Shown here in pieces: positions 1 to 3,000 of a DNA stretch of 16,059 nucleotides. How positions within the stretch are numbered: position 1 is the first letter of the stretch; each line of letters starts with the position of its first letter. Source of the stretch: a virus (lineage: Duplodnaviria > Heunggongvirae > Uroviricota > Caudoviricetes); IMG/VR virus record IMGVR_UViG_2681813228_000018; one strand, written 5' to 3'. Made by a program: the position numbers.

Positions 1-3000
1 CAGTGACTGCACCCCGAAGGTGACCCGCAGGCGGTCAATGTTCGCGGACGTAATGGTGCGCGTCACCGGCTTTGCCTTCGTCACTTCCACGCCCAGTGCG
101 GTTTCCGCCCCGGAGGACTCAAAGCCTTCCGGCGGTGTCTGCTCCTGCTCCCCGGCGCGCCAGACCGCTGTCACACCATGTATCACAGGATTACCGTCCG
201 TGTCCGTCAGCGGGGTTTTGTTCACCAGGATACTCTGCAGCCCCTTCACCGGACCTTCAATCGGCCCTTCACCAATGGCGTCAATCACGCTCATCATCTG
301 CGTGGACTTAAGATTGTCCTTTGCCTCTACCGGCGTGTGCGCCTTGCCGCCCCCTTTACCCACTCTGTCCCCCTCTCCTGTCTGATGTCTGAATCTGTTT
401 ATGCCCCAAAAACGACAGGCACCCCGGAGGGTGCCTGTGTCATGACGGAATAAAATTTCTGAATTTCTTCACATTTTCTGTACGCCCCCGTGGCAGATAT
501 CATTCCCGGGCGTTACAGTTTTTTCGGGCCAATAAAAACAAAACTCCCTGTGGTTAATCTTCATTTTCTGTTCCCGCAGCCTCCATACACTGCGGGATTT
601 TTTTATTCTTTTTACCTCTGCCGCCCGATAACCACGACCTTTCCGCCCCCGCCCTCATCACGGGTGCTGATGTCCTGGGATATCCGTCGTGAACCAACCA
701 GCATTTCACCGTAAGGCACCGGCATCGGGTTCCCCTGAGCAATCATGTTATCCAGCGAGGAAAAGTACGTGTTCTGTCTGCCGTTATCCGTGCTTTTGTA
801 CTCCGGTACTTTAGCCTTCGGGGCCAGCATCTGAGCCACACCACCCAGAATCATGCTGGCCCCCAGAGAAAACAGCATCGTGGTGGCAGAAAAACCACCG
901 GCTGCCAGGGCTGAACCCCATAACGCCATTGATGCCCCGGCCGTGAAGAACGACCCCACGATGGCTGCCGCCCCCAGCACAATCTGCAGTCCGCCCTTTC
1001 CGGCCCCGGCCAGTCGCGGCACAATGTGGATGACCGTTCCCTCACCCAGCTGTTCGTGAAGACGGGCGTACACCGCCTCCGGTGCCGTGTCATCACCGGC
1101 AATACGTATCTGGTACCAGCCTTCGTTCATCTGACGGCGGAATCCCGGCATCTGCATCGACAGGGCACGGATGGCTTCCGCTGCCGTGTTCACATACAGG
1201 CTGAGGCGGCGGCCAAATCGTTGTAAATCCCCGTGAAGGCAGATACGTGCCAGTGGCGGTGACGCCAGGCTGAATGCGTTCGTCGTTGCCATTTTTCGGA
1301 ATACCTCTCCCGTTTACTCAGTTGTTCAGGCAGATGGTGAAGCAGCTCACCGTTGCCGCAGTATATGGCGGCATGATTGGCCACCGATGCGCCAAAGCAG
1401 CACAGCAGGATATCGCCAGGCTGTGCGGAAGGCAGGGAAATCCTGTAAAAACCAGTCGCCGCCATATTGTCCAGGTAAAGGTTCTGACCGTTGCGCCACC
1501 AGTCATCCTCACGCACAAAATCCGGCAGCGTTATCCCCGCCAGATGGTATGCATCCCGGAACAGGGTGTAACAGTCCGTCACCCCGTGCTCAAAACGACG
1601 CCCGGTCAGGTGCGGCACACAGCGGAATTTGTGAATTTCCCCCCGGCAGACCAGCCACCAGGGCAGGGCACTCTTTATCTGCAGCCGCCGGTCCGCCTCG
1701 CTCAGCCAGGGCAGACCACCAGGGTGGCTGTGAACCAGCGCCACAATCTCCCCCTGCATCTCTGCCTGCAGCCAGTCTTCCGGCGCAATACGAAAATACG
1801 CCTCCGGCTCTGCGGAGATATTCACGCAGGGCTGGTACCGTTCGCCCTCCGGGGTGCCTATCACGAAGCCGCACGACTCCGCAGGCGCACACCGCCGGGC
1901 ATGCACCAGAATCGCTGATTCAGTCTGTGTCATAAAACAGGATTTACTGCGAAAGTTTATTGATGGAAAGGAAACCGCCAAAATTAGCCACCATGCCGCG
2001 CATCTCACACCCGCGCATGCACTTGCTGCATCTGTCCTTACGGATATCCGTGGTGGGGTTGTCGAACTCATCCGCCACCGCAGGACCGTTATACCCGCAT
2101 TCATCTCCCCGGTAATCCCACATACAGGTGTTCGCCAGCATGATGCGACCGGGAAACAGCGCTCCGTCCGTCTCCGTCGGTGTGGCCAGCACAAACGAGG
2201 CCGTCATGGCCGTCAGCTCTGACATCTGCTCCACCACCCACCGGTCAGTCAGCTCCTGCTCCGGGTCGGCCTCCGGATTGCCTGCCACAAAGTTCACCGC
2301 ATCCAGAAAACGCGCATACACCCGGCGGCGGACCACCGTGGCACCCACCAGGCTCTGCAAATCCTCCGCCATCCCGGTGACAAGACCGAACAGATTGGAC
2401 ACCGTCAGCGACGGGCGGGCACTGCTGCCCTTTCCGTTCATCTCAAAGCCGCTGCCCTCAATCGGGTACGCCTGATATTCACGCCCCTGCCAGGTCACCG
2501 AATTTAACCGACTCGTTCAGACTTTCTTCATGAATGTCCTGCATCAGTTCACCACCTGCTCAATCGTACAGCTGAAATCACTGTACCGGGCGTTATCCGT
2601 GACGCTCCACTCCCGGCACACCACCCTCACCGTCCGGTTATGTTTCGGCGGTCGCCACAAAAAGGCACGGTAACCACCATGCCAGGATAAAAATTCATCC
2701 AGCCAGCGCCGGGTTGACTCATCCGTCACCCGGAACACCGCCTGAAACGTCTTCAGTTGAGGATTCAGCCCTGTGGGGCGGCGCTGTTCATAACCGTCAC
2801 CAAACCGCACCCTCACCACCGACGGCTTCTCACTCACCTGCATCCCTTCACGCGGGACCAGATGCAGCGTTTTTATCTCAGCCACTCAGCATTCCTCCGT
2901 CACGTCGCATGGACAGCATCACCGCCTGCACCCGCTGGTCAATCAGCTGCACAAGACTGCCCGCAGCTTCCGGCCCTATCTGGCCATTAGTCCCGTCATT

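What the first reader, a model, noticed from the sequence alone, without database searches (positions are those of the whole stretch)
1944..2544. Tail protein L appears frame-broken by a 5'-proximal deletion, suggesting a tail-defective or decaying prophage, or an assembly error
The conserved L start (MQDIHEESLNE, coupled to the M stop) terminates after 21 codons. The rest of L continues in another frame from GTG 2498, and roughly 95 nt corresponding to lambda L residues ~12-48 seem to be missing. Lambda L is needed for tail-tip assembly, so unless a truncated product from the internal GTG is functional this element could not build infectious tails. Every other structural gene looks intact, which would point to recent inactivation. 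The lambda L sequence used for comparison is from memory.
Basis: partly seen in the sequence, partly recalled or inferred. Interest (0 to 1): 0.5.

Follow-up and report, generated by a model that had tools for sequence, protein, structure and literature searches.

The report
Tail gene broken at chimeric join
The tail-tip gene L of this E. coli prophage lacks exactly 98 bases at the very point where the sequence switches from one resident prophage to another that normally lies 2 Mb away, so it is either an assembly mis-join or a one-off rearrangement that killed an ordinary gene, and nothing biologically new.

Summary
On the minus strand, the L start (ATG 2544, overlapping the M stop) terminates after 21 codons, and the rest of L continues in another frame from GTG 2498. 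Alignment with intact homologues shows that exactly 98 nt (L nt 44-141, residues 15-47) are missing. It is not a simple deletion. Window 16059-2502 is 99.993% identical to one prophage (A, HK97-type head) of O121:H19 E. coli. Window 2500-1 is 100% identical to a different prophage (B, lambda-type head) that lies about 2.1 Mb away, in inverted orientation, in the same genomes. Both parents carry an intact 232-aa L. The junction has no microhomology, hairpin or flanking repeat. It was found in none of 5,426 complete E. coli genomes, the phage records or three contig collections. Its right edge lies 1 nt from a position where short-read contigs habitually start. I rate an assembly or finishing mis-join slightly more likely (about 0.5) than a real out-of-register recombination or inversion (about 0.4); only reads or PCR can decide. 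No natural short-L family exists, and all other structural genes are open. In an O121-type host, several other prophages carry intact L, so complementation in trans is plausible. Interest is low.

The parts
2502..16059 (-). Segment derived from prophage A (HK97-type head). It runs from terS (5'-truncated by the window edge) through terL, protease/capsid, portal, a 407-aa ORF, connectors, major tail, G/T, tape measure and M, and ends with the first 43 nt of L.
   Evidence: It has 1 mismatch in 13,558 nt to E. coli 2014C-3599 at 4.14 Mb, and the same region matches 16-9255 and 2014C-3655 with 1 SNP each. All ORFs are open.
2544..2885 (-). M (minor tail protein, 113 aa), A-type allele. Its stop overlaps the L start.
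   Evidence: PF05939 match at E = 4.8e-29; translation.
2479..2544 (-). L 5' remnant: ATG 2544, 14 authentic L codons, 7 out-of-frame codons, then TGA at 2481-2479.
2501..2502 (.). The junction. L nt 43 (window 2502) abuts L nt 142 (window 2501, the rare T142 allele). 98 nt are missing and there is no microhomology.
   Evidence: Alignments. T142 was found in one natural allele (L045, strain 2002-3211). The junction was not found in any collection searched.
1944..2498 (-). L 3' remnant: a 184-aa ORF from GTG 2498 covering residues 49-232 of L. It has no convincing ribosome-binding site.
   Evidence: PF05100 profile positions 21-206 of 206, E = 8.7e-84; upstream context.
1..2501 (-). Segment derived from prophage B (lambda-type head prophage): L from nt 142, K (1933..1190), I (1193 or 1292..612), and the first 363 nt of J.
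   Evidence: Window 1-2498 is 100% identical to 2014C-3655 at 2.37 Mb, RM8352, FWSEC0006 and GTVSS-020, and 2500-1 matches 2014C-3655 B (L039) without mismatch, but is only 93.8% identical to prophage A.

Best explanation
The frame break in L is the seam of a chimeric join between two different lambdoid prophages of an O121:H19-type E. coli. Prophage A supplies the head genes through L nt 43. Prophage B supplies L nt 142 onward, plus K, I and J. The two are joined 98 nt out of register. I consider it most likely that the seam was created when the sequence record was built. In that case two pieces ending in the multi-copy L region were joined without the intervening repeat segment, or a long-read or hybrid layout mis-joined two prophages and no spanning reads were available to correct the splice. 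The 98-nt loss and the broken L would then not exist in the cell. What is shown: the chimeric parentage, the exact 98-nt loss, the uniqueness of the junction, and the absence of any sequence feature that favours a natural deletion. What is inferred: that the join is artefactual.
For: (1) The parental switch falls exactly at the gap: 99.993% identity to A on one side, and 100% to B versus 93.8% to A on the other. (2) In all close complete O121 genomes, A and B are separate prophages about 2.13 Mb apart on opposite strands, and each has an intact 699-nt L. (3) The junction was not found in 5,426 complete E. coli genomes, where every hit to an 86-nt junction probe splits into two pieces 98 nt apart. 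It was also absent from 50,697 phage records, IMG/VR, GTDB representative genomes and JGI metagenomes. No genome carries even an in-register A-up/B-down version of these alleles; the best two-flank match is 98.5%. (4) The right breakpoint is 1 nt from the base (L nt 143) where draft short-read contigs habitually start. Five of 9 inspected contigs start at nt 143 and three at nt 141, and L015, present in 4 samples, is 100% identical to the window's right part. The exact 184-aa remnant is recorded in 111 collection blocks, essentially as a contig-edge product. Nt 142 is a G/C/T polymorphism between prophage copies that creates an assembly-graph fork. (5) There is no natural deletion signature: zero microhomology; the nearest direct repeat (GAGTCGGT, nt 31-38 and 139-146) is not used; and no hairpin brings the ends together (z = -1.3). 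(6) The two breakpoints lie in the same gene, only 98 nt out of register, which is what an alignment-guided joining process would produce. Natural phage mosaics are reported to form overwhelmingly by homology-dependent, hence in-register, exchange (PMC3945230), and the natural mosaic in strain 2015C-4498 is in register with L intact. (7) The window runs straight through 6.8 kb that is an exact two-copy repeat (A and A') in O121 genomes. The source was therefore resolved by long reads, scaffolding or finishing, which are steps that can create joins unsupported by any read.
Against: I could not identify the source record or see its reads, so the artefact is inferred and not shown. De Bruijn-graph assemblers cannot invent junction k-mers, so if the source is a plain short-read contig the junction must exist in the library. 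The left breakpoint (L nt 43) does not coincide with any graph fork among the L copies I could collect. The base at the seam (T142) is a genuine though rare natural allele rather than a placeholder, so both sides of the seam are cleanly templated, as in a real deletion. The flanks are of very high quality, with no indels over 16 kb. Prophage-prophage recombination and gene decay are common in EHEC. The contig-start coincidence is partly produced by the way contigs were retrieved, because looking up the exact 184-aa product favours contigs that begin near it.
Confidence: 0.5

Rival explanations
1. The join is a real single-step event. An imprecise, homology-guided but out-of-register recombination occurred between prophages A and B in one strain. 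Because the two prophages are inverted relative to each other, this would invert the ~2.1 Mb between them. It would leave a chimeric prophage whose L is a pseudogene, and tail-tip assembly would then depend on L supplied in trans by sibling prophages.
For: Both sides of the seam are templated by natural alleles, and the flanking sequence is of high quality. A and B lie in inverted orientation, so an exchange yields an inversion rather than a lethal deletion. EHEC prophages do recombine to give chimeric phages, and defective ones are complemented in trans (PMC2669165). Homology between A-type and B-type tail modules begins at the M/L boundary, so exchanges are expected to cluster at the 5' end of L (natural example L042).
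Against: There is no microhomology at the joint. Illegitimate joins are reported to be much rarer than homologous ones in phage mosaicism (PMC3945230). No other genome shares the junction or even the A-up/B-down arrangement. The right breakpoint lies next to a generic contig-break position.
Confidence: 0.27
2. The break arose in two real steps. A natural in-register A/B mosaic prophage formed first by homologous exchange in the identical stretch at the 5' end of L. A later, independent 98-nt deletion then removed the crossover point.
For: In-register mosaics of this type exist (2015C-4498). A and B are identical over L nt 16-65, which provides a crossover site. L alleles in O121 are visibly patchwork.
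Against: It needs two rare events within about 100 nt of each other. The in-register intermediate with these alleles is not seen in any of 5,426 genomes. The deletion has no flanking repeat or hairpin.
Confidence: 0.13
3. L is still functional here, either as a 184-aa product initiated at GTG 2498 (or by re-initiation at ATG 2441), or through recoding that bridges the two frames.
For: The remnant retains PF05100 profile positions 21-206 and the conserved C-terminal cysteines.
Against: Residues 15-47 are absent from the DNA, so no frameshift can restore them. These residues are conserved from E. coli to Yersinia and Edwardsiella, and in lambda gpL. There is no ribosome-binding site before GTG 2498. 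In the inspected cases the 184-aa product occurs at contig starts or, once, in a frameshift-ridden assembly. No natural family of short L proteins was found.
Confidence: 0.02

Closest known systems
Bacteriophage lambda tail-tip protein gpL (PDB 8iyk chain L; Pfam PF05100 Phage_tail_L)
   Same: The intact parental L proteins are 232 aa and collinear with lambda gpL over residues 1-232 without gaps (E = 1e-125). The gene sits between M and K as in lambda, and the C-terminal cysteines are conserved.
   Different: In the window the gene is split. 14 authentic codons are followed by a frameshift and a stop, residues 15-47 are missing, and the remaining 184 codons are in another frame.
Intact L genes of prophages A and B in O121:H19 genomes (for example 2014C-3599, 2014C-3655, RM8352) and of phage BP-4795 (ORF69)
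   Same: The flanks of the window's junction are 99.99-100% identical to these prophages, and BP-4795 is 97% identical across M-L.
   Different: All of them carry the 98 nt and a single 699-nt ORF. A and B are separate elements about 2.1 Mb apart.
Natural in-register lambdoid tail-module mosaics, for example the prophage at 1.01 Mb in E. coli 2015C-4498
   Same: An A-type tape measure and M (1080 aa and 113 aa) are followed by an L and by the same K protein as in the window, so the exchange point lies in the same neighbourhood.
   Different: The exchange is in register and L is intact at 232 aa. Identity to the window is only about 98%.
Defective prophage pool of EHEC (Asadulghani et al. 2009, PMC2669165)
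   Same: Multiple near-identical lambdoid prophages sit in one chromosome, some with morphogenetic defects, and they recombine and are complemented in trans.
   Different: Those defects are inherited and shared among related strains. This junction was found in no other sequence.
Assembly chimeras and collapsed-repeat joins in multi-prophage STEC genomes
   Same: The two flanks map to different loci in all close complete genomes. The missing piece is a multi-copy segment, and the right edge sits at a recurrent contig break.
   Different: The left edge is not at a demonstrable graph fork, and the seam base is a real allele. No read-level evidence is available.

Membership tests
Phage_tail_L / lambda gpL family (PF05100) | Significant match to the family profile | tested here: met
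   The 184-aa remnant matches at E = 8.7e-84 over profile positions 21-206 of 206. The intact parent matches at E = 3.6e-93 over positions 1-206.
Phage_tail_L / lambda gpL family (PF05100) | A single ORF of about 231-232 aa collinear with gpL from residue 1 | tested here: not met
   The start frame stops after 21 codons and 98 nt are missing. Homologue clusters are 231-232 aa, and lambda gpL aligns 1-232 with the intact parent. The window therefore carries a disrupted member (a pseudogene as encoded), not a functional one.
Phage_tail_L / lambda gpL family (PF05100) | Position in the tail-tip cluster: H-M-L-K-I-J, with the M stop overlapping the L start | tested here: met
Phage_tail_L / lambda gpL family (PF05100) | Conserved C-terminal cysteines. 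From my own memory, these are reported to bind an Fe-S cluster in gpL; I did not check this in a paper here. | tested here: met
   The cysteines in ...NTCMW...GDECGY...DRCSKCMRGCE... align with those of lambda gpL. Fe-S binding itself cannot be tested with these tools.
Homologous (in-register) lambdoid mosaic junction | Two identifiable parental segments | tested here: met
   Prophage A at 99.993% and prophage B at 100%.
Homologous (in-register) lambdoid mosaic junction | The crossover lies within a shared identical stretch and preserves register and reading frame | tested here: not met
   The join is 98 nt out of register and L is frameshifted.
Replication-slippage deletion | Short direct repeats at both deletion ends, with one copy retained | tested here: not met
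   There is no shared base at the joint. The nearby 8-nt repeat GAGTCGGT (L nt 31-38 and 139-146) would give a 108-nt in-frame deletion, which is not what is observed.
Replication-slippage deletion | A hairpin or quasi-palindrome that brings the deletion ends together | tested here: not met
   In the DNA minimum-free-energy fold of the parental region, nt 43-48 pair with nt 67-72 and nt 142-146 pair with nt 101-105. The deleted segment folds at -13.2 kcal/mol, z = -1.3 against shuffles.
Assembly chimera at a collapsed repeat | The flanks map to different loci in all closely related finished genomes, and the junction is unsupported elsewhere | tested here: met
Assembly chimera at a collapsed repeat | Both breakpoints lie at assembly-graph forks or contig ends | tested here: inconclusive
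   The right side is within 1 nt of a recurrent contig start and of a fork at nt 142. For the left side (nt 43), no fork was found among the copies available.
Assembly chimera at a collapsed repeat | No sequencing read spans the junction | not testable with these tools
Lookups of the remnant L, M, V, K and H proteins did not find the source.

The most novel reading that the evidence does not exclude
The junction is real. It would then be a freshly formed, out-of-register and microhomology-free exchange between two prophages 2.1 Mb apart, accompanied by a large chromosomal inversion. Such a case would be a natural snapshot of homology-guided illegitimate recombination generating, and at the same time disabling, a chimeric prophage in the STEC prophage pool, with the lost L function available in trans from sibling prophages.
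Probability: 0.38. Interest if true: 0.3.

Novelty: already known. Interest (0 to 1): 0.1.

Why it matters
It matters mainly as a caution. In genomes with many prophages, such as STEC, an apparent 'recently inactivated' structural gene can be the seam between two different prophages. Before it is read as decay, it should be checked for a parental switch and for read support. If the junction is real, it documents a strain-specific inversion or recombination between resident prophages and one more defective member of the prophage pool, which is of interest for O121 strain typing and prophage mobility but is not a new principle. If it is an artefact, the record misstates prophage content and gene order over about 2 Mb.

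Tried and rejected
(1) I first read the seam as 99 nt replaced by one untemplated T and considered a single-base scaffolding placeholder. I rejected this when a natural allele with T at L nt 142 turned up (L045, strain 2002-3211). The loss is a clean 98 nt.

(2) I asked whether divergence between prophage A and its IS-disrupted sibling A' inside L could explain a contig end at nt 43. It cannot, because A and A' are identical through M and L.

(3) A k-mer fork model using the A, A', B and C copies explains the right edge (nt 142/143) but not the left edge.

(4) I tried to find the source record by exact-protein lookups of the 184-aa remnant, M, the major tail protein, K (twice) and the tape measure. 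Only loci with intact L or contig-edge partials came back. The S142 'variant' of the major tail protein turned out to be the common allele.

(5) Two further O121 genomes (AP024471, CP051631) are not in the BLAST collection, so I could not inspect them in full.

(6) A slippage or hairpin mechanism is rejected.

(7) A natural short-L family is rejected.

(8) PGAP's 'frameshifted portal' label in the closest relative suggested a second defect. I rejected this because the 454-aa ORF contains the whole portal domain and the 454 + 407 aa arrangement recurs in several other prophages of this type (L033, L048; L036 and L056 with variations).

Full report
**The observation**

The genes of the window run on the minus strand. 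M (2885..2544) ends in TGA, which overlaps the ATG of L at 2544. That frame reads MQDIHEESLNESVKFGDLAGA and stops at TGA 2481-2479, after 21 codons. L-like sequence (VTWQGREYQAYPIEGSGFEMNGKG...) continues in another frame from GTG 2498 to TAA 1946-1944, giving 184 aa.

BLAST against 50,697 phage records and 5,426 complete E. coli genomes found the region in 150 and 1,925 records. In every top hit the match was split into two pieces spanning 1,099 bases for 1,001 bases of query. Alignment with three intact homologues showed a single gap of exactly 98 nt.

An intact parental L (232 aa) aligns without gaps over residues 1-232 with the solved lambda tail-tip protein L (PDB 8iyk_L, E = 1e-125). Its Pfam domain PF05100 covers residues 29-230, while the window's remnant keeps only profile positions 21-206.

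**The gap is also a parental breakpoint**

Over the whole window, the closest complete genomes are O121:H19-type strains (2014C-3599, 2014C-3655, 2015C-3107, 2014C-4423). A base-by-base comparison with 2014C-3599 gave these results:
- Window 16059-2502 matches with 1 mismatch in 13,558 nt (99.993%).
- Window 2500-590 matches the same prophage at only 93.8%.
- Window 1-2498 is 100% identical to a different prophage in the same set of genomes: 2014C-3655 at 2.37 Mb, RM8352, FWSEC0006 and GTVSS-020, and 99.9% identical to 2014C-3599 at 2.01 Mb.

The left parent (A) has an HK97-type head module and carries sodC between I and J. The right parent (B) has a lambda-type head module. In the complete genomes, A and B lie about 2.13 Mb apart on opposite strands, and each has an intact 699-nt L.

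In the three-way alignment the window follows A's diagnostic bases up to L nt 15. The next stretch is identical in A and B. After the gap the window follows B's diagnostic bases.

**Anatomy of the seam**

The base at window 2501 (T) matched neither A (G) nor B (C), and at first it looked untemplated. A survey of L alleles from O121 loci then found one natural allele with T at L nt 142, in prophage C of strain 2002-3211 (L045). That strain was the only complete genome whose hit covered 100% of an 86-nt junction probe. L045 diverges from the window 187 nt further on, whereas B matches all 2,500 remaining bases. The right parent is therefore a B-type prophage carrying the rare T142 allele.

The seam is a clean join of nt 43 to nt 142, and the two parents share no base at the joint. 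The nearest direct repeat is GAGTCGGT at nt 31-38 and 139-146. It is not used; using it would have produced a 108-nt in-frame deletion. The parental DNA does not fold so as to bring the two ends together, and the deleted segment is no more structured than shuffled sequence (z = -1.3).

**Uniqueness**

The junction was searched for and not found in the following:
- All 5,426 complete E. coli genomes. All listed top hits to the junction probe (167 records cover at least 80% of it) are two pieces 98 nt apart.
- The phage records.
- IMG/VR, GTDB representative genomes and JGI metagenome contigs, by exact pattern.

No complete genome carries even an in-register A-up/B-down version of these alleles, which would match both flanks at about 100%; the best match is 98.5%.

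A natural in-register mosaic of the same general kind does exist in 2015C-4498, with an A-type tape measure and M, an intact L, and the same K protein. This shows that exchange in this neighbourhood normally preserves L.

**Evidence on artefact versus real event**

The exact 184-aa remnant is on record in 111 blocks of the large assembly collection. In the inspected cases it arises in two ways. In eight of nine draft contigs inspected, the contig begins 2-4 nt upstream of the GTG; the ninth begins 8 nt upstream. Five of the nine start exactly at L nt 143 and three at nt 141. In one further case it comes from a frameshift-ridden long-read assembly. One of these contigs (L015, found in 4 samples) is 100% identical to the window's right part. 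The others are different prophage variants from other strains, so nt 142/143 is a generic break point for short-read assemblies.

A simple k-mer model explains this. Nt 142 is polymorphic (G, C or T) between copies that share flanking sequence, so it creates a graph fork. The window's right breakpoint is thus 1 nt from a recurrent contig start. This coincidence is partly produced by the way the contigs were retrieved.

The left breakpoint (nt 43) does not fall on a fork among the copies I could assemble, and I could not retrieve draft contigs ending there, because the M lookup returned only complete genomes.

The window also runs straight through 6.8 kb that is an exact two-copy repeat in O121 genomes: prophage A and an IS-disrupted sibling, A', are identical from inside the 407-aa ORF through L. 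Either the source was resolved by long reads, scaffolding or finishing, or the strain lacks A'.

**Weighing the explanations**

A single event must explain both the parental switch and the 98-nt loss.
- An alignment-guided joining step in assembly does this naturally, and it also accounts for the near-register position, the missing microhomology, the uniqueness and the right-edge coincidence.
- A real event would have to be a homology-guided but imprecise exchange between two prophages 2.1 Mb apart, producing an inversion. This is possible in a prophage pool that is known to recombine (PMC2669165). However, illegitimate joins are reported to be much rarer than homologous ones in phage mosaicism (PMC3945230).
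- Against the artefact reading, both sides of the seam are cleanly templated, the flanks are of high quality, and de Bruijn assemblers cannot invent junction k-mers.

My estimates are about 0.5 that the 98-nt loss is not real in the cell, about 0.27 for a real one-step rearrangement, about 0.13 for a real two-step history (an in-register mosaic followed by a deletion), and about 0.02 for any reading in which L is still functional.

**Function**

As encoded, L is dead. Residues 15-47 are absent from the DNA, and they are conserved in lambda gpL and in the large 231-232 aa homologue clusters from E. coli, Salmonella, Citrobacter, Yersinia and Edwardsiella. The shorter database entries are labelled partial. 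GTG 2498 has no convincing ribosome-binding site.

The statement that the element 'could not build infectious tails' needs qualifying. O121 genomes carry at least three other prophages with intact L genes (A', B and C). The intact A and B L genes are about 94% identical over the aligned L-K-I DNA. Trans-complementation of morphogenetic defects has been shown in EHEC O157.

**Comparison with what is known, and verdict**

The gene belongs to the lambda gpL / PF05100 family by sequence and position, but it fails the family's single-ORF, full-length criterion, so it is a disrupted copy. The seam is not an ordinary homologous mosaic junction, because register is not preserved. It is not a slippage deletion either, because there is no repeat and no hairpin. 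It has most, though not all, of the hallmarks of an assembly chimera.

Whichever reading is correct, this kind of object is well known: either a broken prophage gene at a junction between prophage modules, or a mis-join in a multi-prophage STEC genome. Interest is low. The decisive test is read-level or PCR evidence across window 2501/2502.

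Noticed in passing
window 9582-10114 (minus-strand ORF 10339..9116): There is a 162-nt tandem repeat of 3.3 copies at 97% identity (54-aa units) inside the 407-aa ORF that follows the portal gene. The ORF is 353 aa in one draft relative (L056), which equals a difference of exactly one repeat unit, so copy number appears to vary between strains. The ORF has no confident Pfam match.
   Followed up: partly
window 9116-11700; L004 10360-12944: PGAP annotates the portal gene plus the following ORF of the closest relative (2014C-3599) as one 'frameshifted' portal pseudogene. 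In the window, however, the 454-aa ORF contains the complete Phage_portal domain (profile 2-321 of 321), and the 407-aa ORF overlaps it by 4 nt. The same two-ORF arrangement recurs in many prophages (L033, L036, L048, L056). It looks like an annotation artefact rather than damage.
   Followed up: partly
L049 (CP027351.1 2576389-2591631) and L050-L055, compared with window 2502-9304: O121 genomes carry a sibling prophage (A') whose head genes are replaced by IS elements. It is 100% identical to prophage A from inside the 407-aa ORF through L, about 6.8 kb. In 2014C-3655 the two copies lie in inverted orientation about 2 Mb apart, which makes them an obvious substrate for large inversions and for assembly collapse.
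   Followed up: partly
window 363-611 compared with L004 21547-22394: Prophage A carries a sodC (Cu/Zn superoxide dismutase) moron on the opposite strand between I and J. The window has the B-type I-J spacer of about 250 nt, without sodC, which accounts for the remaining ~600 nt length difference from prophage A.
   Followed up: yes
window 2501; L045 (CP101305.1, strain 2002-3211): T at L nt 142 is a rare allele, seen in only one complete genome. It turns the imperfect repeat GAGCCGGT into a perfect copy of GAGTCGGT at nt 31-38, which would fit a repeat-templated mutation. I did not pursue this.
   Followed up: no
window ~6477-6490 (minus strand, end of the tail chaperone gene G): The sequence CAGAAAAAAGTAG places an A-rich heptamer (AAAAAAG) immediately before the G stop codon, and the T ORF follows. 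This would fit the conserved -1 frameshift that produces a G-T fusion in lambdoid tails. The lambda-type GGGAAAG motif is not present there.
   Followed up: partly
window 7159 and 6642: Each close O121 genome differs from the window's prophage-A part by its own single SNP: 7159 (P142S in the major tail protein) in 2014C-3599 and 16-9255, and 6642 in 2014C-3655. The window carries the common allele at both sites, so it is a very close relative of these strains but identical to none.
   Followed up: yes
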